From NCBI GenBank assembly GCA_964016885.1, contig OZ024743.1, positions 250,666,001-250,730,000 on the forward strand: DNA of 64,000 nt, in the 5' to 3' direction. The notes beneath the pieces were generated by a model. It saw only the letters and a program-made list of their open reading frames with translations. It had not been told where the DNA came from and searched no databases. Origin of the DNA: Eledone cirrhosa. Lineage: Eukaryota. Positions 17,027 through 64,000 of this stretch are shown here, piece after piece (positions within the stretch are counted from its first letter, which is position 1; every line of letters starts with the position of its first letter). The translations under genes were made by a program, and so were the position numbers.

Positions 17027-17032
<6 letters not shown>
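16708..17032 (+). mobile_element. Diverged solo pLTR fragment of the main PLE family
   Basis: Aligns by eye to ~7335-7713; ends in 'ccccaagtataacaata(ta)n'. Confidence 0.85.
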
Positions 17033-17116
<84 letters not shown>

Positions 17117-17243
17117 TTAGGGTAAATATTGATGCAATTCAATTCAAGCACTCAACGTACTTTTTCCACATAGGAGTGACGGAGTAAATATCGAATAAAT
17201 AAAAGCGAAGTAGTTTCAGATGTTCAAGTCCTTTAATAATAAT

Positions 17244-17317
17244 GCTGTGATATATATTTCAATGACGACACTGGCCACACTGTTCTGTGTGCGAGTGTCG
17301 TGACATCATCAGACAGC
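17244..17317 (-). ncRNA. Type I HHR, unit 1
   Basis: GCTGT-CTGATGA-tgtcACGACACTcgCACAC(agaaca)GTGTGgccAGTGTCGTcatt-GAAA-TATATA-TC-ACAGC. Confidence 0.85.
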
Positions 17318-18505: not shown

Positions 18506-18579
18506 GCTGTGATATATATTTCAATGACGACACTGGCCACACTGTTCTGTGTGCGAGTGTCGTGACATCATCAGACAGC
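18506..18579 (-). ncRNA. Type I HHR, unit 2
   Basis: Same sequence as 17244-17317, shifted by 1262. Confidence 0.85.
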
Positions 18580-19767
18580 TTGTTACATAATAAGGTTATG
18601 TTTCCGAGGCAATCCAAGTTGAATCGACATGGGAATGGACGAAGTGTGTGCTTTTGGGTTCATCCGTTCCCCTGTGAGTACCAATTCACCCCCACCGGTC
18701 TGCGCAGGCGCATGTCCGAAGGAAGTTGACCATTAGCTACCCCAGATTTGAACGAAATTCGCTTAGTCAGTTCACCCTCTCAGCCAAATAATGACCCATT
18801 TAGGCCTGCTACCCGCCCGTCTGTGGCAGTCAGCCGAAAGCCAGAGGGGATGGGAGAGTGTTAGTTTTATACTACCTCTCAACAAGCATGGACAGTACGA
18901 CTGACCATCAACTCCCAAGAGAAAATATACTTAATTCTAGGTATCATGGTTTTACATTGGAAGTTATGAGTGAGAGTTGGAAATAAAAATAAAAATCCTA
19001 AATCAAAAATCAGAAATTATAAATTAAACAATTAAAAAATTAACAATTAGAAATAAAAAAATTGTTCAAGTGAGAATACGGATTGAGGTGAGTAAAAAAA
19101 TATATAGATTGAAGTGAGTAAATAATATGGAGAGAGATGTTTAAGTAAGAAGTTCTGAGAGGAGTTCCAATGTCACAGTTAACACTATCCACATATTGAA
19201 CGATAGTGCCGTACATTAGAACGGAGGGTAAACTACAGTATTCAAGACAGTAGTCAATCTGGTACACAGTCATAATTTCCATCACATGGAACAAAACCAA
19301 AGAAAGACAGATATAAAGTACACAAAAGAAAAGAACCAATAATGAATAAATGCAAAAACACAGAGTACATATATGCAAAATGATCCATATGATTGTCAAT
19401 GTATAGATTGAATTGAGGGGGCTTCTGTTCAAAAGCGATTTGGTGCAGGAAAATATGGGTTTATCTTAGTTTTTGTTTCCGCGTATTTATCCTGCTGAAA
19501 GTTACTATTATGTCCGTCCAGTGTCAGGGGTTTCCATCCCCATGGTAGAGGGAATTTCCAGGGGTAGCTCATGGTTGGTTCCTCTCTTCTCCACCATATC
19601 GGTTATATCATAGAGCACTCAACTAATTGGAGCTAAATTCTTAGGATAAATATTGATGCAATTCAATTCAAGCACTCAACGTACTTTTTCCACATCGGAG
19701 TGACGGAGTAAATATCGAATAAGTAAAAGCGAAGTAGTTTCAGATGTTCAAGTCCTTTAATAATAAT

Positions 19768-19841
19768 GCTGTGATATATATTTCAATGACGACACTGGCC
19801 ACACTGTCCTGTGTGCGAGTGTCGTGGCATCATCAGACAGT
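19768..19841 (-). ncRNA. Type I HHR, unit 3 (a few substitutions, core intact)
   Basis: Shifted by a further 1262; CTGATGA, GAAA and ATC retained. Confidence 0.8.
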
Positions 19842-20994
19842 TTGTTACATAATAAGGTTATGTTTCCGAGGCAATCCAAGTTGAATCGACATGGGAACGG
19901 ACGAAGTGTGTGCTTTTGGATTCTTCATCCGTTCCCCTGTGAGTACCAATTCACCCCCACCGGTCTGCGCAGGCGCATGTCCGAAGGAAGTTGACCATTA
20001 GCTACCGCAGATTTCAACGAAATTCGCTTAGTCAGTTCACTCTCTCAGCCAAACAATGACCCATTTAGGCCTGTACCATAGTTTACTGCTACCCGTCCCG
20101 TCTGTGGCAGTCGCTTTTGAACAGAAGCCCCCTCAATTCAATCTATACATTGACAAATTGACAATCATATGGATCATTTTGCATATATGTACTCTGTATT
20201 TTTGCATTTATTCATTATTGGTTCTTTTCTTTTGTGTACTTTATATCTGTTTTTCTTTGGTTTTGTTCCATGTGATGGAAATTATGACTGTTTACCAGAT
20301 TGACTACTGCCAGATTGACTGTTTACCAGATTGACTACTGCCTTGAATACTGTAGTTTCCCCTCCGGCACTATCGTTCAATATGTGGATAGTGTAACTGT
20401 GACATTGGAACCCCTCTCAGAACTTCTTACTTAAACATCTCTCTCCATATTATTTACTCACTTCAATCTATGTTTTTTTTACTCACCTCAATCTGGATTC
20501 TCACTTGAACAATTTTTTAATTTCTAATTGTTAATTTTTTAATTGTTTAATTCATAATTTCTGATTTTTGATTTAGGATTTTTATTTTTATTTCCAACTC
20601 TCACTCATAACTTCCAATGTAAAACCATGATACATAGAATTAAGTATATTTTCTCTTGGGAGTTGATGGTCAGTCGTACTGTCCATGCTTGTTGAGAGGT
20701 AGTATAAAACTAACACTCTCCCATCCCCTCTGGCTTTCGGCTGACTGCCACAGACAGGGTAGCAGGCCTAAATGGGTCGTTATTTGGCTGACAAGGTGAA
20801 CTGACTAAGCGAATTTCGTTGAAATCTGCGGTAGCTAATGGTCAACTTCCTTCAGACATGCGCCTGCGCAGACCGGTGGGGGTGAATTGGTACTCACAGG
20901 GGAACGGATGAAGAACCCAAAAGCACACACTTCGTCCGTTCCCATGTCGATTCAACTTGGATTGCTTCGGAAACATAACCTTATTATGTAACAA

Positions 20995-21068
20995 GCTGTC
21001 TGATGATGTCACGACACTCGCACACAGAACATTGTGGCCAGTGTCGTCATTGAAATATATATCACAGC
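20995..21068 (+). ncRNA. Type I HHR in the inverted unit
   Basis: gctgt CTGATGA ... GAAA tatata TC acagc read directly on +. Confidence 0.85.
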
Positions 21069-26395: not shown

Positions 26396-32162
<5,767 letters not shown>

Positions 32163-33077: not shown

Positions 33078-34877
33078 TCATCATCATCATCAACGTTTAA
33101 CGTCCGTGTTCCACGCTTGCATGGGTTTGGACGGGGGTAGTCCCACTTGAGGCAAGAGTGATTGTCTTGCTCGCATAGGACTGTCTGGCAGGTTTTCTAC
33201 AGTTGGATGCCCTTCCTAACACCAACCACATTTACAGTGTGGGTCTGGGAGGTTTTTACCGTGTTGCCTACACGGCCACATTACAGCGTGGACTGTGTGT
33301 TTCTTTGTCGTGACACCTCCACGATCTCATTTGTTTCGGCCTGGATGGTGTGGCAACAACACAACTTTACATAGAACGGGGTGGCGTGGATGGGGTGGGG
33401 GTGGTGGGACGGGGGGGGGGGGTATTTTGTTAGAGATGCCTACTGGCTGTAGTAGGTTTTACTATGTATTTAGGTAAGGCGGGTCTTCTCTGTTACTGAG
33501 TACCGCCAAAGGTCTCGGTCCAGTGACATTGTCTTGGAGAGGTGTAAGTGTGTGAGGTCGGAGTTTATCAGCTCGTCCCAGGTTTTTCTAGGTCTGCCTA
33601 TTCCGTGGCTACCGTCTATCTTTATTGCCCTGCACTTTGTTATACAGCTATCGACTTTCATGCGCATCACGTGTCCATACCAACGTAGCCTTCTCTCGAG
33701 TAAACAACATCTGATCCCTCTTATTTCTAATTTTTTCCTTAGTTCGTTTATGCTTTGCCGTTCACGTATATTACTGTTACACATCCAGCGGAGCATGCAA
33801 GCTTCGTTCCTCTCTAGTCTGCGTATATCCTCTGCACACAATGCCCAGGTCTCACTGCCATGCAACATTGCTGTTCGTATGCAGGCATCGTACAACCTGC
33901 CTTTCATTTTTAGGGAGAACCCTTTAGCAGCTAATAGTGGTATAAGCTCTCTGAACTTTTTCCAACCAGTTCTGACTCTAGCTACTGTACTTTCAGAGCA
34001 CCCTCCCCCACTGCTGATTTTATCACCCAGGTAACGGAAACTGTCCACTATTTCTATAGAACCCTCTGCGCAATTGAAAGAGCTAGTATTTGTGGGCACT
34101 TGCTGCTACTTATTGCACCAGAGCACCGGCCACATGTAAAATCTATGTTCTTAGTTAGCTTACCTGTGATCCCACTACATCTTTTATGCACCCATACTTT
34201 GCATTTAGGACATAAAATGGAGTTTCTACCTACGCCATTCCAACACACCGAGCACGACCATTTCCCAGAAGGGACCGCCGCCTTATTTTCTTTCCTACAA
34301 ACTAGAACTTTAGTCTTAGCCAGGTTAATTTTAAGGCCTTTTGATTCTAGGCTGTGCTTCCATGTTTGGAATTTCTTCTCTAGCTCGGCCATTGATTCCG
34401 CTATGAGTGTCAGGTCGTCTGCGTATAGGAGTTCCCATGGGCAGCCGGTCTTGAACTCCTCTGTTATAGCCTGAAGGGCAATAATAAATAGTAGGGGGCT
34501 GAGAACAGAGCCCTGATGGACGCCAACTTTTACGCTAAACTCTTCACTATATTCGTTGTTAATTCTAACCTTGCTGACTGTTTCTTTATACATGGCTTGT
34601 ATAGCTCTCACAAGCCATTCGTCAACGCCTAGTTTTCTAAGAGCCCACCAGATAATGGAACGGGGAACTCTGTCGAAGGCTTTCTCCAAGTCGACAAAAG
34701 CTAAGTAGAGGGGTTTACCTTTAGCTAGGTACTTCTCCTATAGTTGTCGTACAATGAAAAGAGCGTCTGTGGTACTTTTGCCTGACACAAACCCGAACTG
34801 CATTTCATCTAGGTCAATTCTCTCTCTGATTAGTTGCGCTATTACTTTTTCCGTGACCTTCATGACCTGGTCGATTA
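33078..34877 (-). mobile_element. 5'-truncated RTE LINE, near-identical to the 37151 copy
   Basis: ORFs 33470..34099 and 34054..34689 carry RT motifs; (CAT)n tail; inserted in (TA)n. Confidence 0.93.
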
Positions 34878-37151: not shown

Positions 37152-40100
37152 CATCATCATCATCATCATCATCAACGTTTAACGTCCGTGTTCCACGCTT
37201 GCATGGGTTTGGATGGGGGTAGTCCCACTTGAGGCAAGAGTGATTGTCTTGCTCGCATAGGACTGTCTGGCAGGTTTTCTACAGTTGGATGCCCTTCCTA
37301 ACACCAACCACATTTACAGTGTGGGTCTGGGAGGTTTTTACCGTGTTGCCTACACGGCCCCATTACAGCGTGGACTGTGTGTTTTTTTGTCGTGACACCT
37401 ACACGATCTCATTTGTTTCGGCCTGGATGGCGCGGCACCAACATAACTTTACATAGAACGGGGTGGTGTGGATGGGGTGGAGGTGGTGGGACGGGGGGGG
37501 GTATTTTGTTAGAGATGCCTACTGGCTGGAGTAGGTTTTACTATATATTTAGGTAAGGCGGGTCTTCTCTGTTACTGAGTACCGCCAAAGGTCTCAGTCC
37601 AGTGACATTGTCTTGGAGAGGTGTAAGTGTGTGAGGTCGGAGTTTATCAGCTCGTCCCAGGTTTTTCTAGGTCTGCCTATTCCATGGCTACCGTCTATCT
37701 TTATTGCCCTGCACTTTGTTATACAGCTATCGACTTTCATGCGCATCACGTGTCCATACCAACGTAGCCTTCTCTCGAGTAAACAACATCTGATCCCTTT
37801 TATCTCTAATTTTTTCCTTAGTTCGTTTATGCTTTGCCGTTCACGTATATTACTGTTACACATCCAGCGGAGCATGCAAGCTTCGTTCCTCTCTAGTCTG
37901 CGTATATCCTCTGCACACAATGCCCAGGTCTCACTGCCATGCAACATTGTTGTTCGTATGCTGGCATCGTACAACCTGCCTTTCATTTTTAGGGAGAACC
38001 CTTTAGCAGCTAATAGTGGTATAAGCTCTCTGAACTTTTTCCAACCAGTTCTGACTCTAGCTACTGTACTTTCAGAGCACCCTCCCCCACTGCTGATTTT
38101 ATTGCCCAGGTAACGGAAGCTGTCCACTATTTCTATAGAACCCTCTGCGCAATTGAAAGAGCTAGTATTTGTGGGCACTTGCTGCTACTTATTGCACCAG
38201 AACACCGGCCACATGTAAAATCTATGTTCTTAGTTAGCTTACCTGTGATCCCACTACATCTTTTATGCACCCATACTTTGCATTTAGGACATAAAATGGA
38301 GTTTCTACCTACGACCATTTCCCAGAAGGGACCGCCGCCTTGTTTTCTTTCCTACAAACTAGAACTTTAGCCTTAGCCAGGTTAATTTTAAGTCCTTTTA
38401 ACTCTAGGCCGTGCTTCCATGTTTGGAATTTCTTCACTAGCTCGGCCATTGATTCCGCTCTGAGTGTCAGGTCATCTGCGTATAGGAGTTCCCATGGGCA
38501 GCCGGTCTTGAACTCCTCTGTTATAGCCTGAAGGGCAATAATAAATAGTAGGGGGCTGAGAACAGAGCCCTGATGGACGCCAACTTTTACGCTAAACTCT
38601 TCACTATATTCGTTGTTAATTCTAACCTTGCTGACCGTTTCTTTATACATGGCTTGTATAGCCCTCACAAGCCATTCGTCAACGCCTAGTTTTCTAAGAG
38701 CCCACCAGATAATGGAGCGGGGGACTCTGTCGAAGGCTTTCTCCAAGTCGACAAAAGCTAAGTAGAGGGGTTTACCTTTAGCTAGGTACTTCTCCTGTAG
38801 TTGTCGTACTATGAAAAGAGCGTCTGTGGTACTTTTGCCTGACACAAACCCGAACTGCATTTCATCTAGGTCAATTCTCTCTCTGATTAGTTGCGCTATT
38901 ACTTTTTCTGTGACCCTCATGACCTGGTCGATTAATTTAATGCCTCTATAGTTACTCCTATCTAGGGCGTCTCCTTTACCCTTATAACAGTTAACGATGA
39001 TGCTGCTATGCCAGTCCTTCGGAACAACCCCATTCTGTACGACTTGGTTAACTATGCGGGTGACCATGGTGTGTCCCACCGTGCCAGATGCCTTCAGCAT
39101 CTCAGCAACTATTTCCGAAGGCCCAGCCGCCTTACCCGTCTTCATATCCTTGATTGCCTTACTTATTGTACTCCCCTCGACTAACACTGCTGGTCCCTCT
39201 ATTCGGTCGATATGGGGGAGACTGTCTTTCTCCCATTTATTCTCCTCATTTAGTAGCCTTTCATAGTGACACTTCCAAGCTACCTTCTTATCAGCGTCGG
39301 TGATGGCAAGTGTGCCATCATCGTTTAGTACACACTTCTCCCCGACAATATCACGGTTTTCCTTGACGCATTGCCTAGCAATCCTGAACACCTCACGTTT
39401 TTGGTCCTCGCGTTGTAGAACATGCTTGAACTTTCTTTCCTCAGCTTCCCTTCTTGCTAAGTACACTTGTCTCCTAGCTTCCCTCCTGGCCACTTGATAG
39501 TCTTCTCTACTTCCCCCATCCCGCCATACTTTCCAAGCCTGCTTTTTGGCCTTAATTGACCCCTCCACTTTACTGTTCCACCACCATGTTACTCTCCTCC
39601 TGCCTACAGGCCTGCTCCAGCCACAGACTTCGTCTGTCGCCATCAGCAGGTTTGCTTTCAGAAATTCCCACTGTCCCTCTATATTGTCCGACTGTAAATG
39701 TTCTTCCTTACTGTCGAAAGCATCAAGTAATATGCTTTGAAATTTATTTCTGGCTGTGGGGTCCTTTAGCTTCCATATTTTTCTCCTGAGGATAGTCCTC
39801 TTCTGCTGTCGAGTACGTCTCGTCCTGACTATGAGGTCGCTAATTATCAGTCTATGTTGGGAGGTGCATTCTTCATGGGGGAGGGATATAGTGTTTACGA
39901 CAGACACTCTGTCACGTCTTCTGGTAAGGATATAATCTACCTGGCTTGTGTTCCCCGGATCTATAGGTGATCAGGTGATTGTCACGTTTTTTGAAGTTAG
40001 TGTTACAGATAGTTAGATTATTTGCATCACAGAATTCCAGAATTCTGGAGCCTTCCTCATTTCTAGTACCAAACCCATAGCCTCCATGGATTTCGTCGTA

Positions 40101-40885
40101 GCCGTCACAATGTTGTCCAACGTGACCATTTAGGTCGCCTGCAATAATTATATAGTCACTGTCGGATATTTGGGAGGTAGTTAGCATCAGTGTCTCATAG
40201 AATCTGTCTTTTATAGTGTCGGGCAGTCCGGATTGGGGTGCGTACGCAGATATTACTGTCACCGTAGTTCTATTGAGGACAAGTCGTATTTTAATTATTC
40301 TGTCGTTCACTCTATTTACGTCTATTATCTTATCTGCCCACTTTTCTGCTACCATGATTCCTACTCCACCCAGCCCATCGTCGTTTCCCACCCAGAAAAG
40401 CTTATAACATCGTTTTTTACCCTCAATGAATCTAGCAGACCCACCCCTCCACCTGGTCTCTTGAATACAACATACATCGACCTCCTTACGTTCAAGCATT
40501 TCTACAACCTCGTTAGCGCGACCCTTTAGGGTTCCTACATTTATGGTACCAACTCTGAAGTTTGGGATTGCGTTTGGAGGATGGGGGCGGTGGGGGGCGG
40601 GGGGAGATGGGGTTATGTTAGCCATCCGCGGACGAAACAAAGAGGAGAGCTCGCATTCTCGTCCACGAGGTGAATTTGACTTTAACTTTGGCATTTTCGC
40701 TGAGCGTCCAGATTTTTCTCTCCCTTCCACTCTCCAGGATTCCGCAGTCCATCCATCCATCCATCATATATCGAAGGCAACCGGGCAAGCGATAGTATAG
40801 GCCTCTGGCTTATGATTGGTCCGCGTAATAATAATAATGGTGATGCGGGGGGGGGGGGGCTCTGGCTTATGATTGGTCCACGTAT
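37151..40885 (-). mobile_element. Near full-length RTE LINE, single ORF broken by frameshifts
   Basis: APE endonuclease (TINVGTL, CIQETRW, SAYAPQ, GDLNGHVG; 39912-40760), RT (38309-39907), C-terminal RWYGHVMRM. Confidence 0.95.
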
Positions 40886-41541: not shown

Positions 41542-42028
41542 AGATAAATCAACGGAGCCATAGACTCTCGTTATTCCCTGTAAATTATGTGCTCAAAGGA
41601 AAAGGAAATCTGAGCTCTTTAAAATACAATATGTAGAAAGGGTAACACACTAGAGAGAGAGAGAGGGAGAGGGAGAGAGAGAGAATGAGAGAGAGAGAGA
41701 GAGCGTGTGACATCAATAAAACAGGGAAACCACCAGTGTATGGAATCTATAGCCTATGGAAGGCAGGGTAGACACACAATAATTAAAAATATAAATTAAA
41801 ATGCACATACGCACCTCTATAACTATATAACACACACGTACAAATCCAAAGAGATCTGTTTCGCCAAGAAATTATTGACTGAAATGGAAGCGATTATGGG
41901 TCATCAGCGGGTATAAGACAAATAGATTCCAGACAACTCTAAAAAGATATAAGATAACAGTTCTGCAACACGTGGCAATATATACATATATATACATGTA
42001 TAATACAAATATATATATATATATATAA

Positions 42029-51062: not shown

Positions 51063-54058
51063 TTTTACATCCGCTCTTCCCTGCTCGCAAGGGTGGGACA
51101 GGTCTTATTCAGCACAGCATCTCTCCACTCATCACGGTCCTTCGTCATCTCCACCGTGAGCTTCAACGATCTGAGGTCTGTACTTACCACCTCCGCCCAT
51201 GTTTTTCGTGGGCTACCTCTACCACGTCTTCCTTCAACTGGCATTTCCTGGCACTTCTTCACCTATCGGTCATCCCTCTCAGACACAATTTCTCTTTCAA
51301 CACATTCATGCTGGGTCGTTCACGTACATTTACACTGCACATCCAACGGAGCATGCTTGCCTCATTTCTCTTCAGCCGTCGCATATCCTCTGCAGTTGCT
51401 GCCCATGTCTCACTACCATGCAGCATCACGCTCCTTAGACAGGCATCATTCAACCGGTCTTTCATACGCAGGGAAAAACCCTTCTTCGTCAGCAGAGGAA
51501 GCAGCTCCCTAAATTCTTCCAACCTGTCCTTATTCTAGATACTATAGCCTTGGAACACTCTCCTCCCATGCTAATCTGATCTCCTAGGTACCGGAAGCTA
51601 TCCACCACTTCTATAGCACCCTCCTGCATTTGAAAAATGTAATATCAATGCGACTTTTACTGTCTAATTTCCCTGTACATCTACTGCATACATATTTCTC
51701 CCTACCTGTTAGTTTGCCTGCTATCCCGCTACATCTCTTGTGTACCCAGGATCTGCATTGTGTGCATTTTATAGAATTTATGCTAGTTCCTTTTCTGCAT
51801 ATCGAACATGGCCATTTCCCTGGCGGAACCAGAGTTTTGTCCTCTTTTCTACTCATCAACACTTTTGTCTTAGCTAGGTTCACTCTGAGTCCTCTTGCTT
51901 CCAACTGCTGTTTCCATAGCCAGAATTTATTCTCTAGCTCCTCTACTGATTCTGCTACAAGAACCAGATCGTCAGCATAGAGAAGTTCCCATGAAGAGCC
52001 AGTCTTAAACTCCTCTGTTATGGCTTGGAGGACTATAATGAACAAGAGCGGGCTGAGGACCGAACCTTGATGTACTCCTACTTGTATCTGGAATTCCTCA
52101 CTAAACTCCATTCCTACCCTGACTTTAATGAGTGTACCTCTGTACAAAGTTTGCACTGTCCTCACAAGCCATTCCTCAACACCTAGTTTCCTTAGGGACC
52201 ACCAGATGACAGATCGGGGTACCCTATCAAAGGCCTTCTCTAGGTCAACAAAGGCTAAGTATAGTGGCTTATTTTTCTCTAAGAACCTCTCTTCCAATTG
52301 TCTCACCAAGAAGAGGACATCTGTTGTACTCTTCCTAGGCACAAAACCAAACTGCATCTCATCTACTTTGACCCTTTCTCTAATTAATTGTGCTAATATC
52401 GTCTCTGCAATTTTCATAACCTGATCCATCAGTTTTATACCCCTATAATTGCTCCTCTTCAGAGCATCCCCTTTACCTTTGTAGCAATTTATGAGAATAT
52501 TGCTGCACCAGTCTTTGGGTATGACACCACCATATATAGCCTGATTGATGATGCGCGCAACCAGTTTAGTGCCTACATCCCCTGATGCCTTCAGCATCTC
52601 AGCAACTATTCCCGATGGTCCAGCAGCCTTACCATTTTTCATTTCCTTAATCACCTCTTGGACCCTATATTCGTCAATCTCAATAGCTGGTCCCTCTGTC
52701 GGATCTACTAAGGGTAATTTCTCTCTCTCCCATTCGTTCTCCACATTCATCAGTCTCTCATAATGACATTTCCAGGCCTCCTTTTTCTGATCATTCGTGA
52801 CACTAAGTACACTGGCATCATCCCAGACACATTTATCTCCAACAACATCCTGATTTGCATTGGCACACTGCCTTGCAATGGGGAACACCGCACGCCTCTG
52901 ATCTTCCCGTCGCAGAACATTGGCAAACCTCCTACTCTCAGCCTCCCTGCGTGCTAAGTACACCTGACGTCTAGCTTCTTTCTTAGCGGCTGTATATTCT
53001 TCCCTACTCCCACCCTTTTTCCAAGCCTTCCATGCTAGTCTTTTGTCTCTAATGGCCTTATCTACTGTGCTGTTCCACCACCAGGTCACTCTCTGTCTGG
53101 TTGGAGCTCTGCTCCAGCCACAAGTTTCATCAGTAACCTGTAGCAAGTTGTCACGTAAGAAATTCCAGTTATTATCTATGTCATGAATGAAAATGAAAAA
53201 AATGAAATGATGTCATACGTCTATAAATCGTCTCCTTTTTCGTCATATACATCTTGAAGGGCTTTCCTAAATTTGTATTTTAGTGAAAGGTCTTTTAGCT
53301 TGCAGACCTTTCTTCTCCACACTTTCCTGTATGTCTCATTCCATCTCTTGCTTACTGAGATATCACTAACGACTAACCTATGCTGTGGGGTACAATATTC
53401 CCCAGGGTATGCCTTGGTATTAGACACTATCTGCCTGTCCTGCTGCCTAACTAGTAAGAAGTCAATCTGGCTTATGTGCTCGCCAGATTTATAGTTTATT
53501 AGGTTATTGCTCGCCAGATTTATAGGTTATTAGGTTATTGGCAGGTTTCTGGAAGTTTCTGGAAGTCAGTGTACTTGCATCACAAAATTCAAGAAGTCTC
53601 AATCCTTCATTTCTTGAGCCGTAACCGTGCCCACCATGTACCCCAGTGTAACCATCCTGGAGCTGTCCAACATAACCATTGAAGTCCCCTGCTAGCATAA
53701 TGATGTCTCCGTCCTCTGTCATTGCGGTTGTTTGTAAAAGTTGCTTGGGGAGCATAGGCAGAGATGATTGTCAGTAGTCTCCTGCCTACAACTAATTTAA
53801 GCTTAATTATTCGATTACTAAATCGAACTACCTCTATTGTCTTATTGATCCATCTCTCAGCCAGGAAAATGCCTACTCCCCCTAACCCATCATCCTTACC
53901 TACCCAGAAAAGCTTATATCTAAGATGTTTGCCTACGACTAGTCTCGCAGAGGCACCTTTCCATCTCACCTCTTGCACGCAGCACACATCCACATGCCTT
54001 CTCTCCAGCATCTCCGCTATTTCAGTAGATCTACCTCTGAGAGTGCCAACATTAAGTG
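51062..54058 (-). mobile_element. Near full-length RTE LINE of a second subfamily, disrupted
   Basis: APE (CCVQEVRW, SAYAPQ, GDFNG), RT 51611..53146 (LYADDL), C-terminal GSETW. Confidence 0.93.
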
Positions 54059-54406
54059 ATGATGATAATAATGTGTGTGTGTTTATGATTATGTATCTAT
54101 GTGTATAATCATTTGTATTTGACGCAATGATTTTTTTCTTCTTTTAAATAACCTATTAATGAGGTATTTCCAGTCAACAGACAAATTGACTAGTCTTAAA
54201 TCTTCCCCTGAGTAATTAACTATCAAACATTATAACACACACACACACATAGACACAAGCTCATTACATTTTCTTTTATATTTTGCAAATAATTACGGGT
54301 CACTAGTAATTAGAACAACAATAAAAAATGTATACCAAACACTTAAAAATGATTCTTCTGATTTGTAATAAAAATATTATTATTATTATTATTATTATTA
54401 CTATGA

Positions 54407-55287
54407 CTGAGGATTGGCTATTTCGGTAGAGCATTGGACAACATGCTTTGCAGTATGTAGTTAGTTAAGGCTCTTTACATTCTGAGTTCAAATCCCTCCA
54501 AGGTCTGCTTTATCTTTAATCCTTCCAGGATTGATAAAATAAAGTACCAGTAATGCACCGGCGTCAATTTAATCAACTTTCCCCTCCCCTAAAATTGTTG
54601 GTCTTGTGATTAAATCAGAAACCATTATTATTATTGGATTGGCAGTATCGGTAGAGGGTCAGACGCCATTCTTTGACGCATAGAGTTACGGTCCTTGCCA
54701 TTCTGAGTTCAAATCCTGCCGAGGTTAACTTTGCTTTTCATCCTTACGGGGTCGATAACATCAAGTACCAGTAATGCACTGGGTAATTGCTGGTCTTGTG
54801 CTAAAAGTAGAAACAATTATTATTATTATTATGGAGGGCAGTAGATTGACGATATTGGTAGGGCACTGGACAACATGCTGCATGACATAGAGTTACGGCC
54901 CTTTACGTTCCGAGTTCAAATCCTGTCGAGATTAGCTTTGCCTTTTATCCTTACGGGGTCGATAAAATAAAGTACCATTAATGCACTGGGGTCGATTTAA
55001 TCAACTTTCCACTCCCCTAAAATTGTTGGCCTCGTGTTTAAATCCCAAACCATTATTATTATTATGGTAGTGGATTCGGCCCTTGTGGCCAATAAATAAA
55101 ATCATTATTGGCAGTATCGGTAGAGGGTCGGATGCCATGCTTTCCAGCATGGTTACGTCCCTTTACGATCTGAGTTCAAATCCCACCAAGGTTGACTTTG
55201 CTTTTCATCCTTACGAGGTCGATAAAATAAAGTACCAGTAATGTACTGGGTAATTGCTGGCTTTGTGCCTAAAGTAGAAACAATTAT
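54407..55287 (+). mobile_element. Four head-to-tail Nin/Deu tRNA-SINEs
   Basis: A-box tggcagtatcgg, B-box gagttcaaatcc, core 'tttcatccttacggggtcgataaaataaagtaccag', (ATT)n spacers. Confidence 0.9.
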
Positions 55288-56327
55288 ATCTCTTTCACTA
55301 ACATTCCTCTCCTTCCCCTGATTCCTCCTTTTCCTTCTTTACCCCTCTTTCACTGTCATTTGGCCTCTTTTCGATTCACCTGCTCTATCCTTCTTTCCCC
55401 TCTTTTCCACCCATGGCTCCTCTTTCACCATAGTTTAGCCCTTTTCTGTCTCTTTTGCCCTTTATATACTTCTTAACCACACAACACCGTATATCTTTTT
55501 ATTTCCTCTTTCCTGACGGTTGTGATGGTGGTGATGGGCGTTGCCATTTGCAGTAGTGTTCTGTGGTTGGGGGATGTCGATTGTTGTGGTGTGAGAGTTC
55601 ACCGGTCTTTCACTTAGTGTTAGTAGTGGTGGTAGTGGTGGTTGTGGTGGAGAAAGTAGGTAATGGTATTGAAGCAAGTGTATGATGATGGGTTTAGCCA
55701 ATCATATGTAACCCACCCATATGTAACCTGCAATCAATCATCAATAGTAAATGAATATAACAAGGAAGTCAGAGGTGCTGAATATTTCCAGATGGTCAAG
55801 ACCCTATTTTTGATATCAGATAAACTATGTTAATGTAAATGATAAATATTCTAACCAGAAACAAAACACCAGCAAAGGATGTGAAACCTTGATCTACAGC
55901 TTCACAAGAAAGTTAACCAATTACTTTAAACGTTATCCACTCACCCACCACCTCATTGTTGGTTAGTTAAATAAGTGTGAATCCTCCCAATATTACCTTT
56001 ATTTATAAAAGTCCTTAGATGGGAATATATTGAAGTCAGTTAATAAGTTTGAATGTAATCAATACTACGTAAGGATCCAGATCACCTATGAATTTGTAGG
56101 AGCACCATAATGACATCTTAGGCAAATTTATATATATATATATGTATAAAACCCTTTTTGTACAGCCGACCATGTTATTCTTCAATCTTTCACCATATAT
56201 ATATATATATATATATATAGTGGCTGCCTCCTCGTTATCGAGTATGGCCATTGCACGAGGAGAAATAAAAATAAAAAAATTAATAAATAAATAAAAAATA
56301 AAAATAAAAATAAAAATAAAAAAAAGA

Positions 56328-56358
<31 letters not shown>

Positions 56359-56407
56359 TAATAAAATAATGAATAAACAAAGAACCAGTTCCTTATATTA
56401 AAAAAAT

Positions 56408-56512
56408 TCATCATTTTACGATCGTTTCTAGGATATATATGTGTTAGAGTTGGTATGCATATTCTATAGATCTATGTACAATATTTATACAAACTATCAG
56501 AGGGAATATACA
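56408..56512 (-). ncRNA. 3' half of an HHR split by the Gypsy element
   Basis: Minus strand: ...GAATATGCATACC...ACACATATATATccta-GAAAC(gatc)GTA-AAATGATGA. Confidence 0.8.
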
Positions 56513-56915
56513 CATAACGGGTTTTAGGGTCAATTCTTAATATACATAATAGAGATCAGAAGGCATTTAGAACATTGACTAAATCCATTATCGATGTTGT
56601 AACTCTATTTATTAGTCGTACATGTTGAACGGATACATTAGGTACAGGTCGTATCTACATGTGTAGGATGTAGCTTGGTCCGCTTCATTGCAAGATGGAG
56701 ATGTTGTTAGCAGCAATGAGTGTAGCCTGGTCTTGTCGATAAGAGAGGTGCGTGTAGACTAATGACTCTCTTGGTCACCTCCGCTCACACTGGTGACGTG
56801 GTTCTGGACAGTCGAATTAGTGCGCCGAAGGTTTTGATTGGCTCACACTTCAGCCAACTTACCTCCGTAACACCATTCCTCCGCAGAAGGAAAATACATT
56901 TTATTCACTGCTACA
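56513..56915 (-). repeat. 3' LTR
   Basis: About 4 differences from the 5' LTR by eye; starts TGTAGC on -. Confidence 0.95.
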
Positions 56916-56928
56916 TCACCCCCTGCTT
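56916..56928 (-). other. Polypurine tract
   Basis: AAGCAGGGGGTGA immediately before the 3' LTR. Confidence 0.8.
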
Positions 56929-57137
56929 AGGCTTACAGCCGACAGAGAAATAAGGGTAGCAGTTGAATGAAAGAAAAAGTACTATATAATAGTAAACACA
57001 ATAAAATATATCACTGATAAAGAAATGTTCATATTACAGGAAAGTCAGAAATAGTGTAATGTTCACCTTAGTTCATACATTTAATACAAATACAAGGGCG
57101 GAGCAAACTCCAAGAAGATTGCTGTAAATAACATAGT

Positions 57138-60100
57138 TCATATATAAAGAGTCTTGCAAAGCTTCTTGGGCCAATGTACTCGCCGACCGCTACGTGTGGT
57201 GGTGACATATGTAGGTGTAGGTGTGTGCGATGTTATATGTGTATTGTGGTTTGGCTGATGCCAGGTGTATGTGGGGGGAAAATGGGGCTCTTGTGTGAGA
57301 GTGTCTGTATAGGCCTGTTTTACCCTGTCAATGGACACAGTCTCTTTTTTACCCCCAATGTCTAGGGTGAATAGCTTATCTGTGCGCTCAAGCACGCGAT
57401 AGGGACCGGTATAAGGTGGCATGAGAGGAGCTCTCACGGCGTCCTTTCGTAAAAAGACGTGGGTCCATGAAGCAATGTCTTTCGGGACCGAAGATTTGAT
57501 TGTCTGTTGGCGAGGGTGCATAGGCGGAAGATTGCTGAAATATGATTGCAGTCTGCTCACATACAGAGCTGGGTCTGTTGCTGGTAGGTCCAATGGAGCT
57601 AACATCTGACCAGGCAGAGATATAGGCACTCCGTAAACCAACTCGGCGGGGGAGTAGCCTAGATCTTCCTTGATGGCTGCACGACAGCCCAGGAGGACAA
57701 TTGGTACATATTCGCTCCACCGCTGCTGATCCGGATAAGCGCGCAGTGCGGCTTTCAATTGGCGGTGGAAGCGTTCAACCATTCCGTTAGAAGCTGGATG
57801 GTAGCTGGTCGTTCGAATGCGTTGCATTCCCAGGATCCTTGAAAGCTCTCGGAAAAGGTGTGACTCAAATTGTCCACCGCGGTCAGTGGTGATAGTGGCT
57901 GGAACTCCGTAACGCGATATCCAACCCGATACTAGGGCTCGCGCTACAGATTCCGCCGAAATGTCACTTAAAGGAATGGCTTCAGGCCAACGTGTGAAGC
58001 GATCTATGCAGGTCAGGAGGTATGTAAATCCTCGGCTGACCGGCCATGGTCCGACAAGATCTATATGGACATGGCTGAACCGAGCGTCTGGAGTGCTGAA
58101 AGTTCCAAGGGGTGCGCGGATGTGTTTGTGCACCTTTGACTTTTGGCAGGATAGGCAGGAACGTGTCCAGGCAGTGATGTCACGCCTCATATTAGGCCAG
58201 AAGAATCTAGCCGAAATGAGCTTCACCGTGGTCGATATTCCAGGGTGTGCCAGACCGTACAAGGTGTCGAAAACTGCTCGACGATGAGTCACTGGCACTA
58301 GAGGGCGAGGTGCATCTGTCGAGGTGTCGCAGATAATCTGTGTGTCCGAAGTGGGCACAGGCAGATATGCAAATTTGCCAGTTGCAAATTCAGAAGACGA
58401 GAGGTCCAAAGTATCCAGAGGTGGTTGTTCTGTGGCCATTCGTTGGAGGTCGATTTCCGCTGGCGATGACAGGGAATTAATTGGGAGGCGAGACAGTGCA
58501 TCTGCCGCCGCATTCTGTTCACCAGAGATGTGTCGGATATCGCTGGTAAATTGCGAAGCGAAGTCCAAGTGGCGAGTTTCGCGAGGTGAATATTTGTCCG
58601 GCTTAGAACGCAGTGCGAACGTAAGCGGACGGTGGTCAGTGTATATAACAAATTGGCGACCCTCCAGTGAATGCCGAAAGTGTTTCACTGCAAGGTACAT
58701 AGCCAAGAGTTCACGGCCGAATGTGCTATACCGTGTTTCTGCAGGCTTCAGCTGTTTAGAAAAGTAGGCAAGAGGTTGTAACTGTTGTTGGTGATGTTGT
58801 TGCAGTACTGCACCTACAGCTGTGCCTGATGCATCAACAACCAGTGAAAACTGGGCACCAGACACAGGATGTGCAAGCAGTGATGTCTCCGCAAGCTTCC
58901 GCTTCACTTCGTCGAAAGCTTTTAGCTGATTCGTGTCCAATGAAATGGAATCGTTCTTCTTTTTCCTGTTACGTAACAGGTCGGACAGAGGAGACAGGAG
59001 ATCCGCACAGTGTGGGATAAAGCGCCTGTAATAGTTCAGTAGCCCAAGGAAATGTCGTAGTTGACGAAGTGAAGTGGGTGGTTGGAGGTCTTGTACCGCT
59101 TTCACTTTATCAGGTAGTGGCGAAATTCCTTCTGGGCTGATGACATGGCCCAAGAAGACAAGTGAGGAAGCACCGAAAACACATTTTGCCGGATTAATTC
59201 TCACTTGGTATTTTTGAAATCTCTCGAACAGGAGACGGAGGTGAGTGACATGTTCCTCAGGTGAGGCACTTGCCACAAGAATGTCGTCGATGTAGTTGTA
59301 CACGAAGTCTAAATCGCGCACAACTTCATCCATAAATCGTTGGAACGTGCTGGCTGCGTTTCGCAAACCGAAAGGCATGGTCAAAAATTCAAACGCTCCA
59401 AATGGAGTTGTTACTGCAGTTTTAGGTATGTCTGCCGGGTTCACCGGGATTTGGTGGTATGCTTTGACCAAATCCAATTTGGAGAATATGTTGCATCCAT
59501 GCAGCGAAGATGCAAAATACTGTATGTGTGGTATCGGGTAGCGGTCGGGTACCGTCATTGCATTTAACCGGCGAAAGTCCCCAGTGGGACGCCAATCACC
59601 GGAACGCTTTGGTACCAAATGCAAGGGTGCGGCCCACGGGCTTGAGGATGGGCGAATGATCCCGAGCTGCAGCATGTGATTGAATTCAGCCTTTGCGGCC
59701 TTCAGTTTCTCAGCAGAGAGACGGCGAGTTCGCGAAAACACAGGAGCTCCGGATGTTTCAATGTGGTGCTTGGTGGAGTGAGTAGGCTCACTCATCACAA
59801 AATTCAAATTTGTTAATTCCGGGAAGGAATGCAAAAGTGATTGGTAAGGATCTTCTGTAGCAGCGATAAAGAAGACCGGGCTGACCGACGAGACAGTCGA
59901 TCTGGTACCCGGCACAGACAGTTCTGTGTTGGCATCCAACAACCGGCGTCTGCGCATATCCACTATCAAGTTATAGTGGTGCAGGAAATCTGAGCCTAGG
60001 ATGGGGTAAGGCAGATCAGCAACAGTGAAGATCCACGTGAAATCTCTACGCAATTCCAGGTTCAAAGAACGAGAAATCTGACCGTACGTGGGGATCGGTG

Positions 60101-60299
60101 ACTGGTTTACTGCTTGCAGAGAGACGGTTGAGAGTTGGGGCTTCTCTTTGAGAAGTTTTAGCGGCCAAATGCTACAAGCCGCGCCGGTGTCGATCAGACA
60201 ACGTGCTTGCGACTCAGTGTCTGTGATGAAAAATACACGGTTATTAGGGAGGGTCAGAGGAGACTGTGCCGTGCTCAGGTCTCCTGAAATCTGTTTCCC
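57138..60299 (-). CDS. pol: Gypsy Pol (protease, RT, RNase H, integrase), likely expressed by -1 frameshift
   Basis: [50 protein letters not shown]. Confidence 0.96.
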
Positions 60300-61124
60300 T
60301 GGTCTGAAAATGTACAAGGCTGTTTACAGGAGCGTGCTGCTGCGCCAAAACGGCTGTGGTAGTAACACAAACCTGAACTGCTTGTGTGACGGCGTCGTGG
60401 TGAGGGTGAACGGCTCTGGAAACGGCGTCTGGGCGAATGAGCCCTGTGAGTGCTTAGTTTTCTCACTTCCTTGGTTAGCTGCTCTATTGCTTGCAGCATT
60501 TGCAAGTGACTGGTCGGTATAACTGGCAGCCGCTGGAGTGAAGGAAGCGACCGCAGTCGGCGGCTGAGATACATTGAAGGAGACAGGAGCGAACGGATTG
60601 ACCGCAGCCGGTGGCTGAGGTGCCTGGAAGGGGGCAAATGAGGCTGGGTGTCCGATGACACTCATAACCCTGTCGGCCGAAGCCGCTAGCTGGTCGACAG
60701 GAGCAGCCTCCATCATGGGCGCTAAGATCGCCTGAACTCCGGGGGGTAGCCTTGAGACAAAAAGCTGTCTAAGGAGGGCACTGTCAGCTGGGGCATCTTC
60801 CGCCAGCTCTCTCATCCGACGCAGTAGTTGTGTGGGCGTCCGATCACGCAAATGTTCGTCATTGACGAGCGTCTGAAATTTTTTTTCTGCGGACAATGTG
60901 GTCCGCCGCAACACTTCGAGCTTCACGCTCTCATAGGAGGCCCCAGGGCGAGGATCGGTAATTAAGTCTTTGACGACCGACGTCAATGACGCTGGAAAAG
61001 CGCTTAACAGGAGATTTAACTGTCTGTGGTCACTGGTGATGTTATTCGCTGTGAAATGTGCTTCTATCTGGGCGAACCAGACAGTGACGTCACCGGTAAA
61101 CGGTGGCAATGAAGTGCTACCCAT
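60275..61124 (-). CDS. gag: Gypsy Gag, split by one frameshift at ~60500-60660
   Basis: [13 protein letters not shown]...[11 protein letters not shown] in one frame; coiled coil and [18 protein letters not shown] knuckle in another. Confidence 0.88.
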
Positions 61125-61766
61125 TGTGTATACTGATGTAAAAGCAAAGGGCAAAGAAAGGACAACTCTGCACTTGTCACCGAGACAAAAGTGAAAATTC
61201 AGGCCAAGAAAAAATATAATCCGAGTGAAGGACAGAAAAAGAAAAATATATCAAAAACAATGTTGGAGGGAAAAACGTCAAGCTTTAAAAAAAAAATTAT
61301 GATTTATCTTTGTCCTATTATTATTTTTTTTGTGTACTTTTCAAAATGGCGTTGCCTCCGTCGTTTTGGCGGGAAAACAGCTGAAGAAGACGGAAGTCGG
61401 CCATCTTGCTCTGACCGGCTATCAGCACCAACAGTTTTTTTTTTTTTTTATATAGCGTCGCCCAATCAGAAATTGAGAGGGAAAAATAAGATTTTTGTAT
61501 TAACGCATGTGTTCGGTGATGTTAGAAAGTGAAGGTGTGATGTGCAGATTTAGTAACAATAAGACAATATATCAAATACATATTAGGACTCACGCTAATC
61601 GCGTACATACCCCGAGAAAAGGCGAGTGGCTTTGTTTTTTCTTTTTTTTTGGGGGGGGGGGATGCGAAATGTTGATGTGTTCGTTGCAACGGAAAGATGT
61701 GGTTTCTTCTGTGTTGATGTCCTTAAACGTTCGGGTCACCATTTATAATGTGATTTGTTGTATCGT

Positions 61767-61784
61767 ATCACGTCGGGGTCACCA
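61767..61784 (-). other. Primer-binding site for tRNA-Trp
   Basis: TGGTGACCCCGACGTGAT, complementary to the 3' end of metazoan tRNA-Trp, 2 nt from the 5' LTR. Confidence 0.9.
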
Positions 61785-61786
61785 TT

Positions 61787-62189
61787 TATAACGGGTTTTA
61801 GGGTCAATTCTTAATATACATAATAGAGATCAGAAGGCATTTAGAACATTGACTAAATCCATTATCGATGTTGTAACTCTATTTATTAGTCGTACATGTT
61901 GAACGGATACATTAGGTACAGGTCGTATCTACATGTGTAGGATGTAGCTTGGTCCGCTTCATTGCAAGATGGAGATGTTGTTAGCAGCAATGAGTGTAGC
62001 CTGGTCTTGTCGATAAGAGTGGTGCGTGTAGACTAATGACTCTCTTGGTCACCTCCGCTCACACTGGTGACGTAGTTCTGGACAGTCGAATTAGTGCACC
62101 GAAGGTTTTGATTGGCTCACACTTCAGCCAACTTACCTCCGTAACACCATTCCTCCGCAGAAGGAAAATACATTTTATTCACTGCTACA
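61787..62189 (-). repeat. 5' LTR
   Basis: Direct repeat of 56513-56915. Confidence 0.95.
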
Positions 62190-62230
62190 TACATACCTAC
62201 ACATATATATGCTGTCTTCAGAAATAATGA
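62190..62230 (-). ncRNA. 5' half of the HHR split by the Gypsy element
   Basis: Minus strand: TCATTATTT-CTGAAGA-cagcATATATATGTGTaGGTATGTA. Confidence 0.8.
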
Positions 62231-62925
62231 TATTTGTTTATTGAAAAAACAAAGATTCAATACAATAGGTCTGTTTGGGAACAGGTTTTGAATTGACCAA
62301 TAGAGAGATAGTGAGGGTCAGGATAGTAATACAGTAGTAGAAGAACCTTAAATTATGGGTAGAGGAAGGTAGATTTCAGTTTTGGATGGAAAAGAATATT
62401 ATGAATGAAGGATTATTTTAGGGAAGAAATAGGTCTTATGCTGACCTCAGAAATAATTTTATTTTTTCATTGAATAAAACCAACAAAGATCTAATATATT
62501 CTGTCTGTTTGGTAAGAGGTTTAGAATTAACCAATAGAAAGTTAATAATTGGCCAAATGGTAAAATAGTAGTAATTGATGGTTAATTTAAGGGTGAAAAT
62601 AGGGCAGGTGGTCAGTAAAAGGTATACAAGCAGTTGCTGTTATAAAATAGTAATGCCAATACAAATATCTAAGGTGACTAAAGTTTTAAGATAAGAATGT
62701 TAGTAAAAAAATATACATCTATGAAAAGAATATAAATTAATTTAATTGATGGGTATATTTATATTGATAAAATTATACTAATACATATAGATATGATAAA
62801 TAAGAGTTAGATACAGTTGAAAAGTGCTGTTAAAGATGAGGGGAAATTAAAAGAATATAAAAATAATATATATATATATATATATATACTTATACATATA
62901 TATATATATACATATATATACACAT

Positions 62926-62979
<54 letters not shown>

Positions 62980-63320
62980 TTATATATACATATATATATA
63001 TACATATATATACATACACACACACACATACACACATATATACATATACATATACATATATATACACTTATACATATATATATATATATATACATAGATA
63101 TATACATGCCCATATACATACATACACATACATATACACACACATATATATTTATATATACATATAATTATTGGGGGGGGGGATTAAATTTATTAGTGAG
63201 AAATAGTAAATATATATAGTTTTCAAGGAACATAGAGTCATAACCTGAAGTTTAAGCATTATATATGTTTACTTAATGGTATCAGTTTTAGGAAATGATA
63301 TTTGTAAGAAGGAAAGTAAA

Positions 63321-63542
63321 ATTATGTAGTTCATTAGTAGTAGAATATTAATTATAGGTTAACTAAATTAAAAATAGTTTATATATTAATTTCTAAAGTG
63401 TATATTAATTAGGTTTATAATTTTTAAAGCAGGATTATGTAGTTCATCAGTAGTAGAATATTAATTATAGGTTAACTGAATTAAAAATAATTTATAAATT
63501 AATTTCTAAAGTGTCTATTAATTAGGTTTATAATATTTAAAG
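63321..63542. repeat. Tandem duplication (~113 bp) spanning the PLE stop codon
   Basis: 'attatgtagttcat.agtagtagaatatt' at 63321 and 63434. Confidence 0.85.
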
Positions 63543-64000
63543 GTTTTTCTCAGTTTATGATTACACGATATAATTAATTCCTGTCGCTTATTTAATAGGA
63601 TATCCTTAGATTTCATTATTTCAAAAAGTTCTTGGGAACATAATCTACATTCATTTCTACTATTTTGATAAGGGGTGGCCCTTTTGAGCACACTCCAGGT
63701 CAGGTCATATTCTATATTCCTCTTTCTATAACTATTTATTATTTCAGCTAGAGATGTTGTATTAGCTAGTGCGGCATTTTTAAAACTATGTGTGTGGGTA
63801 TTAAATCTTACCTTAAATTTGTTAGAGGTAGCTCCTATATATGAATAAATTGGGTCCTTAGTGTTAACTTTACATTTATATACTATGTTATTAACAAGGC
63901 AATTTCCTTTTAATGGACAGTATGCCTTGTTTCTACAGTTACAACCTTTCGTGAATCCTGTATCTGAGGAGATATTATGGTTAGTTTGATGTACTGGTGG
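63518..64000 (-). CDS. C-terminal GIY-YIG endonuclease of another PLE (Naiad-like), open to the window edge and absent from the ORF track
   Basis: Manual translation: GCNCRNKAYCPLKGNCLVNNIVYKCKV..YSYIGATSNKFKVRFNTH..WSVLKRATPY..CRLCSQE..LLNKRQE..CNH..*. Confidence 0.88.
   Translation of the reverse strand, partial: PPVHQTNHNISSDTGFTKGCNCRNKAYCPLKGNCLVNNIVYKCKVNTKDPIYSYIGATSNKFKVRFNTHTHSFKNAALANTTSLAEIINSYRKRNIEYDLTWSVLKRATPYQNSRNECRLCSQELFEIMKSKDILLNKRQELIISCNHKLRKTFKYYKPN

What the first reader, a model, noticed from the sequence alone, without database searches (positions are those of the whole stretch)
56408..62230. A long-stem-II hammerhead cut in two by the Gypsy insertion
Seen: removing 56513-62189 and one TACA rebuilds a 142-nt minus-strand type I HHR. 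It has a 9-bp stem I (TCATTATTT/AAATGATGA), CTGAAGA, a ~105-nt stem II with a 12-bp helix and a 13-bp helix (GGTATGTATATTC/GAATATGCATACC) that spans the insertion point, then GAAAC-gatc-GTA. It lies 3' of the GIY-YIG ORF at 63518, so it is that PLE's pLTR ribozyme. This independently supports the TSD and gives a second example of ~100-nt stem II HHRs.
Basis: partly seen in the sequence, partly recalled or inferred. Interest (0 to 1): 0.75.

Follow-up and report, generated by a model that had tools for sequence, protein, structure and literature searches.

The report
Long-armed hammerhead split by retrotransposon
A jumping gene recently landed in the middle of a self-cutting RNA motif (a hammerhead ribozyme) whose side arm is about five times longer than in its relatives, and intact long-armed copies exist in other public data, so this is a real and unusual variant of a known ribozyme whose cutting activity has not yet been tested.

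Summary
Observation confirmed. Leaving out the 5.7-kb Gypsy (LTRs 99% alike) and one TACA gives a 142-nt minus-strand type I hammerhead: 9-bp stem I, CUGAAGA core, 105-nt stem II (z -5.3), perfectly palindromic helix III, GUA site. The decisive test passed: contigs join the two flanks at exactly this point in 3 of 4 public runs, from three organism labels and three studies, so the long stem II is the family's normal form. In 80 Hydra-clade PLE loci, 61 hold a hammerhead and all 56 distinct motifs have a 10-30 nt stem II. The ORF at 63518 is a Hydra-clade endonuclease and the motif has Hydra-type marks, but it lies 1.3 kb away across a microsatellite, so 'that PLE's pLTR ribozyme' is likely, not shown. 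The fold does not fix the TSD length. A second, unrelated and weaker 94-nt candidate lies at 16062-16180. Cleavage is untested; this copy is probably dead. Verdict: new variant of a known kind; the insertion itself is ordinary nesting.

The parts
62222..62230 (-). Hammerhead stem I, 5' strand
   Evidence: pairs with 56408-56416, pair probabilities 0.64-0.97 in the 142-mer
62215..62221 (-). Catalytic core CUGAAGA
   Evidence: sequence
62194..62214 (-). Stem II, 5' part: weak proximal pairs, 5' strand of the 12-bp helix, first 4 nt of the 13-bp helix
62190..62193 (.). Target-site duplication, right copy (TACA on +)
   Evidence: empty site read in contigs
56513..62189 (-). Gypsy-type LTR retrotransposon inserted in stem II (5677 bp, same strand as the hammerhead)
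   Evidence: LTR pair; RT, RNase H, integrase
61787..62189 (-). Gypsy 5' LTR (403 bp, starts TGTAG, ends TTATA)
61767..61784 (-). Primer-binding site, 2 nt after the 5' LTR; tRNA-Trp-like (tRNA identity recalled, no call)
   Evidence: sequence
60324..61250 (-). gag-position ORF (DUF7041)
57138..60323 (-). pol frame: RVT_1, RT_RNaseH, Integrase_H2C2, rve; no env seen
56916..56928 (-). Polypurine tract
   Evidence: sequence
56513..56915 (-). Gypsy 3' LTR (403 bp; 4 differences from the 5' LTR, one at the last base)
56509..56512 (.). Target-site duplication, left copy (TACA on +)
56429..56512 (-). Stem II, 3' part: rest of the 13-bp helix, apical hairpin (56475-56491), 3' strand of the 12-bp helix
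56418..56428 (-). GAAA box and palindromic helix III (ACGAUCGU, 56418-56425)
   Evidence: self-duplex of 8 pairs, -10.0 kcal/mol
56417..56417 (-). Residue 17 of the GUA triplet; predicted cut 3' of it; other copies read GUU
56408..56416 (-). Stem I, 3' strand
   Evidence: G.U to A-U variant at 56412 in all 4 runs
56358..56407 (-). 3' tail of the element, ending at a (TA)n tract (56325-56357); in this copy it can fold back on the cleavage site
   Evidence: loose ends at 56363-56364 in X1, X2, X8
62437..62620 (-). Upstream partial duplicate (~73-78% alike to 62208-62390) ending in a variant core CUGAGGU (62444-62450) and the first 7 nt of stem II
62860..63160 (.). Compound TA/CA microsatellite between the hammerhead region and the ORF
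   Evidence: sequence
63518..64000 (-). C-terminal endonuclease of a Hydra-clade Penelope-like element (5' part outside the window)
   Evidence: CxCx5C linker, CxxC before E, CxH after N, no CCHH; 44% to full-length RT-EN relative P0114

Best explanation
The two flanks are the 3' end of a very abundant, TA-targeting Penelope-like element of Hydra type, whose hammerhead has a 105-nt rod-like stem II as its normal form. Shown: the anatomy, the empty site in other copies, the 3' end at (TA)n. Inferred: as in other PLE hammerheads, helix III is too short in a single motif, so two motifs in one tandem or inverted transcript pair through the ACGAUCGU palindrome (8 bp) and cut after GUA/GUU, about 60 nt from the element's end. 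The long arm folds on itself, leaves the core intact and is tolerated, not catalytic; its tip is too far out for the usual loop II-stem I contact, so cutting is probably slow and may need the element's protein. A young Gypsy then integrated into the AT-rich 13-bp helix with a 4-bp duplication and put 5.7 kb between the halves, which most likely inactivates this copy.
For: Depth in X2 is alike at the stem II tip (95,557 at 56482) and beside the 5' half (99,600 at 62243), against 301-1628 in Gypsy-internal bins (not a copy number). Variants seen in all 4 runs keep the motif: GUA to GUU and G.U to A-U in stem I; the four-change haplotype of single contigs in X1, X6, X8 extends stem I by 5 pairs after an internal loop. 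Hydra-type marks: unpaired base on each side of stem II (C...A in 2 of 56 motifs, e.g. L026 with the same CUGAAGA core), palindromic helix III, GUA in 40 of 56. Dimer cleavage and low rates of PLE hammerheads: PMC4209133, PMC6765202; protein assistance: PMC11167929. Large inserts in another arm are tolerated in the Clec2 hammerhead (PMC6155905).
Against: No cleavage data, and no RNA run was laid. No listed contig spans core to cleavage site; joints have only 20-40 letters on the shorter side, so the whole intact 142-mer is pieced together from overlapping evidence. X6 shows no joint and covers only the 3' end. Depth at the 3' half (up to 723,262 at 56417) is about 7 times that of the stem II tip, so many copies sharing the 3' half may have another 5' half or be truncated. 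Proximal helix II is weak in this copy (C.A, C.C). With more than 44 nt of tail, stem I probability falls from 0.76 to 0.01 in this copy. Covariation in the 12- and 13-bp helices could not be read: only 40 of 683 variant rows were shown. The link to the ORF is untested.
Confidence: 0.6

Rival explanations
1. The long-armed motif is a dead or nearly dead ribozyme: the arm disabled it and the family multiplied anyway, because PLE copying does not need the cut.
For: Cutting was not needed for insertion in vitro by the anole PLE (PMC11167929); Naiads spread without canonical hammerheads (PMC8557442); weak proximal helix II and a competing tail hairpin here.
Against: The listed variants keep the core, a cleavable triplet and stem I pairing; the tail hairpin does not win in the variant haplotype (stem I probability 0.53-0.68).
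Confidence: 0.3
2. The hammerhead region (56358-62850) is a separate truncated or non-autonomous Hydra-type element that landed in the same TA tract, and is not the 3' end of the ORF at 63518.
For: 1297 nt from stop to core against 44-462 nt in related loci and about 170 nt in two published consensus sequences (read by eye); a 300-bp microsatellite, the clade's preferred target, lies between.
Against: The 350 nt between the stop and the microsatellite hold no hammerhead, though the clade is said always to have one; same strand; one X8 loose end beside 62740 begins with 13 letters identical to 63639-63651 in the endonuclease gene (0.01 expected per such pattern, but picked from 24 listed loose ends, one contig).
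Confidence: 0.3
3. Origin of the arm: an old 83-bp inverted-repeat element (TGTGT...ACACA, 4-bp TATA duplicate) jumped into a TA-rich loop II of an ordinary hammerhead and was fixed in the family; the Gypsy is then the second insertion at this spot.
For: Without the inner 83 nt and one TATA, stem II is 18 nt, the median of the survey; Ginger2 transposons make 4-bp duplications at RTATAY (PMC2836005); the upstream duplicate stops right after the TA start of stem II.
Against: The ends read TGTGT, not the TGTNR of Ginger; the inner piece has no free copy in the window or the 80 loci; no short-stem joint is among the listed joints (6 rows not shown in its table 5); slippage of TA/CA repeats explains the 12-bp helix as well.
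Confidence: 0.25
4. The join is a chance or assembly artefact.
For: The 12-bp helix is made of self-complementary TA/CA repeats.
Against: Joints in 3 of 4 runs, null 0 in 10 Mb, z -5.3 against dinucleotide shuffles.
Confidence: 0.02

Closest known systems
Type I hammerheads of Hydra-clade Penelope-like elements (Craig et al. 2021, PMC8557442, file S2)
   Same: Position near the 3' end, (TA)n target, CUGANGA core, unpaired base on each side of stem II, palindromic helix III, GUA/GUU site; C-terminal endonuclease with the Hydra motifs on the same strand upstream.
   Different: Stem II is 105 nt against 12-26 nt in the 26 Hydra rows of that table (hand count) and 10-30 nt in 56 motifs of my survey; stem I is 9 bp against 3-8; the listed Hydra-1_oBim motif is another sequence; distance from the stop is 1.3 kb.
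Minimal, dimer-forming hammerheads of metazoan PLEs (Cervera and de la Pena 2014, PMC4209133; Luense et al. 2017, seen only as cited in PMC6765202)
   Same: Short palindromic helix III, no clear loop-loop contact, most copies dispersed and truncated.
   Different: Their 'large' helix II is 6-8 bp; the usual G10.1-C11.1 pair is not present here.
Discontinuous Clec2 hammerhead of mammals (as described in PMC6155905)
   Same: A natural hammerhead that bears a very long insert in one arm.
   Different: That is a type III motif with 150-1500 nt in helix I, in a host 3' UTR; here type I, helix II, in a retroelement.
Ty3/Gypsy LTR retrotransposon nested in another repeat
   Same: TG-starting LTRs, PBS, PPT, RT-RNase H-integrase order, 4-bp duplication at an AT-rich site.
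   Different: Nothing unusual but the landing site; LTR ends in TA/TG, not CA.

Membership tests
Type I hammerhead ribozyme | CUGANGA and GAAA boxes, NUH triplet, A15.1-U16.1 | tested here: met
Type I hammerhead ribozyme | Three helices round the core, ends in stem I | tested here: met
   constrained fold -34.7 kcal/mol; helix III only 2 bp as a monomer, 8 bp as a dimer
Type I hammerhead ribozyme | Stem II closed by G10.1-C11.1 next to the core | tested here: not met
   C.A, then A-U, G-C, C.C; but 31 of 56 Hydra motifs start with U...U and 2 of 56 with C...A
Type I hammerhead ribozyme | Match to an Rfam hammerhead model | tested here: inconclusive
   0 matches at gathering level in the window as it stands; the joined form was not scanned
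Type I hammerhead ribozyme | Self-cleavage at residue 17 | not testable with these tools
   needs an assay or RNA ends
Type I hammerhead ribozyme | Covariation in the helices | tested here: inconclusive
   stem I G.U to A-U kept in 4 of 4 runs; long helices not among the 40 of 683 rows shown
Hydra-clade PLE | C-terminal GIY-YIG endonuclease with CxCx5C linker, CxxC and CxH, no CCHH | tested here: met
   (reads IVY...YIG; Pfam gave no family)
Hydra-clade PLE | RT with RWK and DKT motifs in the same ORF | not testable with these tools
   window ends inside the ORF; no genome held; full-length relatives P0113, P0114 show RW and DKT
Hydra-clade PLE | Insertion into (TA)n | tested here: met
   element end at 56358-56364 runs into (TA)n here and in X1; same end in X2, X8
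Hydra-clade PLE | Hammerhead in the 3' UTR or pLTR of the ORF-bearing copy | tested here: inconclusive
   same strand and 3' of the ORF, but 1297 nt away across a microsatellite; no second pLTR in the window
Ty3/Gypsy LTR retrotransposon | LTR pair, PBS, PPT, RT-RNase H-integrase order, TSD | tested here: met
Ginger2-type non-autonomous element (as origin of the arm) | TGTNR termini | tested here: not met
   both ends read TGTGT
Ginger2-type non-autonomous element (as origin of the arm) | 4-bp duplication at RTATAY; free copies elsewhere | tested here: inconclusive
   TATA on both sides, but inside TA repeats; no free copy in window or 80 loci

The most novel reading that the evidence does not exclude
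Active PLE hammerheads with ~100-nt structured stem II arms are a recurring class in this lineage (two unrelated families in one 64-kb window, one at very high copy) and are invisible to the descriptors used so far, which cap the core-to-GAAA spacer at 17 nt and note split cores only to 35-50 nt (PMC8557442). Some PLE families reported to lack hammerheads may then carry long-armed ones, and the arm may be a functional module (protein-binding site or folding switch working with the 3'-tail hairpin) and not just a tolerated insert.
Probability: 0.25. Interest if true: 0.7.

Novelty: new variant of a known kind. Interest (0 to 1): 0.5.

Why it matters
Hammerheads in Penelope-like elements are known, but their role is open, and surveys find them with short-stem descriptors. 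A high-copy family whose stem II is five times the clade's median shows that such surveys can miss whole families, and gives a natural test of whether PLE hammerheads are kept for cutting: core and stem I stay intact in the variants seen while the arm varies in length. The Gypsy insertion is ordinary, but it shows that ribozyme structure can be used to spot and check nested insertions.

Tried and rejected
No whole genome is held, so the BLAST for copies was replaced by laying public contigs. No RNA holder listed; this says nothing on expression. Rfam: 0 matches at gathering level in the window; only sub-threshold hits in 15900-17400. A 20-letter pattern of the 3' half found 0 matches in viral contigs and 0 in bacterial and archaeal genomes. 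The search for homologous proteins for longer relatives of the endonuclease found none among 122 candidates; the single protein found no locus in metagenomes and alignment A3 none in viral contigs. My first three scans missed the 94-nt candidate at 16065 because of its variant core and 3-bp stem I; a looser scan of 414 core/GAAA pairs found it. In the 80-locus survey 22 long core-to-GAAA pairings were listed besides the 56 short motifs; 1 of 22 closed a helix next to the core, and the four I inspected (L068, L043, L055, L023) are not credible; 19 of 80 loci had no motif, many being cut before or just after the stop. The fold as a test of TSD length was rejected. The tail hairpin as a family-wide switch is not supported: it wins in this copy only. 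Luense et al. 2017 is not held. Eight literature searches showed no report of a ~100-nt stem II in a PLE hammerhead; subscription journals, Repbase and Dfam were not searchable, and bioRxiv supplements and the supplements of PMC4209133 were not read.
Full report
Observation. The Gypsy has LTRs at 56513-56915 and 61787-62189 that differ at 4 of 403 places, a PBS 2 nt behind the 5' LTR and a PPT before the 3' LTR, and a pol frame with RT, RNase H and integrase. It lies on the minus strand. The hammerhead-constrained fold costs 3.3 kcal/mol over the MFE (-34.7 against -38.0). Stem II is far more stable than its shuffles (z -5.27; 0 of 500), and a motif with a 9-bp stem I and palindromic helix III did not occur in 10.0 Mb of null sequence.

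Uninterrupted copies. No genome is held. A run search with 62190-62840 listed 14 runs, 10 holding the stretch or part of it. I laid 4 of them (X1, X2, X6, X8; all contigs; 4 organism labels, 3 studies) on 56360-62840 at 80% likeness. One run may be the window's own source; leaving out any one leaves two. Five further X2 joints differ by small changes within stem II, and one (56510 to 62212) lacks the 5' strand of the helices. In X2 the depth is 293,990 in 56360-56576, 93,878 in 62219-62435 and about 19,000-21,000 in 62436-62840, against 301-1628 in Gypsy-internal bins. The tool warns that this is no copy number, but the flanks are plainly a very abundant repeat with a 3' bias. Depth at the arm's tip (95,557) matches depth beside the 5' half (99,600), so copies with this 5' half mostly have the long arm; depth at the 3' half is up to 7 times higher, which I cannot explain. 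Limits: no listed contig spans core to cleavage site, and only 40 of 683 variant rows were shown. The listed variants in the motif keep it: 56417 turns GUA into GUU and 56412 turns a G.U into A-U, in 4 of 4 runs. With 56403 and 56406 they lie in one contig in X1, X6 and X8, and that haplotype adds 5 pairs to stem I after an internal loop. Loose ends at 56363-56364 mark the element's 3' end at a TA tract.

The TSD. The contigs give the empty site. A 4-bp TACA duplicate with 403-bp LTRs, or a 5-bp one with one change and 402-bp LTRs, both need one mismatch. The 4-bp model gives an LTR end TTATA followed by a 2-nt spacer before the PBS, which is the more usual build (my knowledge). The fold cannot choose: all models give 142 nt and -38.0, and removing no duplicate gives -36.5.

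The host element. The frame 63518-64000 has no Pfam match but 4431 relatives at E up to 0.001. It shows CxCx5C, CxxC before the conserved E, CxH after the conserved N, and no CCHH, the marks of the Hydra clade in PMC8557442 (section 11; alignment in its supplement), and is 44% identical to a full-length RT-EN relative. 61 of 80 hold a hammerhead; the 56 distinct motifs have 10-30 nt between core and GAAA, median 18, and lie 44-462 nt behind the stop where both were found. The 26 Hydra rows of the published table give 12-26 nt, and its longest entries of any clade, marked as deviating, about 50 nt (hand count). The window's motif shares the clade's marks (unpaired base each side of stem II, with C...A also in L026; palindromic helix III; GUA) but has four to five times the arm. 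Its link to this ORF copy is not shown: 1297 nt, a 117-nt tandem duplicate, a 300-bp microsatellite and a partial duplicate of the hammerhead unit lie between. For the link: the 350 nt after the stop hold no hammerhead of their own, and one X8 loose end beside 62740 starts with 13 letters of the endonuclease gene, a weak, single-contig hint. The host is probably an octopus, from a SINE motif at 54400-55290 that I recall; no call tested this.

How it most likely works. Helix III has 2 bp in a monomer; the palindrome ACGAUCGU gives 8 bp between two motifs (-10.0 kcal/mol). PLE hammerheads of this build cut as dimers, slowly (PMC4209133, parts 1-2 of 4 read; PMC6765202 passages), and one needs its element's protein and is dispensable for insertion in vitro (PMC11167929 passages). 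I infer the same here, with the arm as a self-folding passenger. An inverted copy starting at the core was seen in X8 (loose end behind 62228), so two motifs can lie close. In this copy the last 14 nt of the tail can pair over the cleavage site, which removes stem I once more than 44 nt of tail are made (0.76 to 0.01); the variant haplotype keeps 0.53-0.68, so a co-transcriptional window is possible but not established. With 5.7 kb and two LTRs between its halves this copy is most likely dead. The arm may come from an 83-bp inverted-repeat insertion into a TA loop, since its removal leaves exactly 18 nt, but the ends do not fit the Ginger TGTNR rule (PMC2836005 passages) and no free copy was found.

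The other long motif. A looser scan found a plus-strand motif at 16062-16180: CCGAUGA core, 94-nt stem II closed by G-C, palindromic ACAAUUGU, GUA, but only 3 bp of stem I and z -1.78 (25 of 500 shuffles as low). An inverted copy, 91% alike, at 15401-15637 keeps the core and 94 nt. It has no sequence likeness to the 105-nt motif (best match 10 nt).

Literature. Searches. Seen besides the above: PMC8557442 passages and supplement parts 1, 2, 52; PMC6155905, PMC10085705, PMC13725137, PMC3088659 passages; bioRxiv 10.64898/2026.07.22.740005 part 1 of 5 and passages. 'Long' helix II there means 6-8 bp. None reports a ~100-nt stem II in a PLE; Luense et al. 2017 was not held, and repeat databases and most subscription journals were out of reach. 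Earlier notes of this scan held nothing on this genome or sequence; one note describes a bacterial type III hammerhead with a 77-nt arm (unchecked).

Verdict. Real feature, correctly read. New variant of a known kind: a Hydra-type PLE hammerhead with a family-wide 105-nt stem II, here broken by an ordinary young Gypsy insertion. Interest 0.5; it would rise to about 0.7 if the long-armed form cleaves and proves to be a class that short-stem surveys have missed.

Noticed in passing
window 16062-16180 (+) and 15401-15637 (-): Second long-stem-II hammerhead candidate (94 nt, CCGAUGA core, 3-bp stem I, palindromic helix III) in two inverted copies 91% alike; unrelated in sequence to the 105-nt motif; no ORF found beside it.
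   Followed up: partly
window 16377-16577: Near-perfect inverted repeat with a short-stem (17 nt) hammerhead on each strand, between TA tracts.
   Followed up: no
window 17116-19939 (-) and 20995-21068 (+): 1262-bp tandem repeat (3 units), each with a hammerhead of 45-nt stem II and AUC triplet, plus an inverted copy; no long ORF, so retrozyme-like.
   Followed up: no
window 27033-30686 (-), copies near 5500-7450 and 31130-31933: 1217-aa PLE frame with an asparagine-rich insert and a Neptune-like CxxxxCxxC linker (clade by motif only); tandem and inverted copies 96-100% alike, each with a CUGACGA core and 17-nt stem II but no clear stem I.
   Followed up: no
window 8548-8590 (+) and 41820-41915 (-): Two more hammerhead-like motifs (14-nt and 38-nt stem II; the second looks decayed).
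   Followed up: no
window 63313-63542: 117-nt tandem duplicate (92%) covering the endonuclease stop codon and the start of the 3' UTR.
   Followed up: no
window 62247-62476: Contigs of run X2 skip 227-228 nt here, so some family copies have one unit of the duplicated region and not two.
   Followed up: partly
window 60324-60326 (-): The Gypsy gag-position ORF ends in TAA and the pol frame follows in the same frame; how pol is expressed was not examined.
   Followed up: no
window 38309-40763, 51611-54143, 34054-34737, 9137-9841: Several LINE copies with AP endonuclease, RT and a C-terminal PHD finger.
   Followed up: no
L039 about 2399: Hydra-clade hammerhead with a U3-A8 core (UUGAAAA), the covariation described in Schistosoma PLEs.
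   Followed up: no
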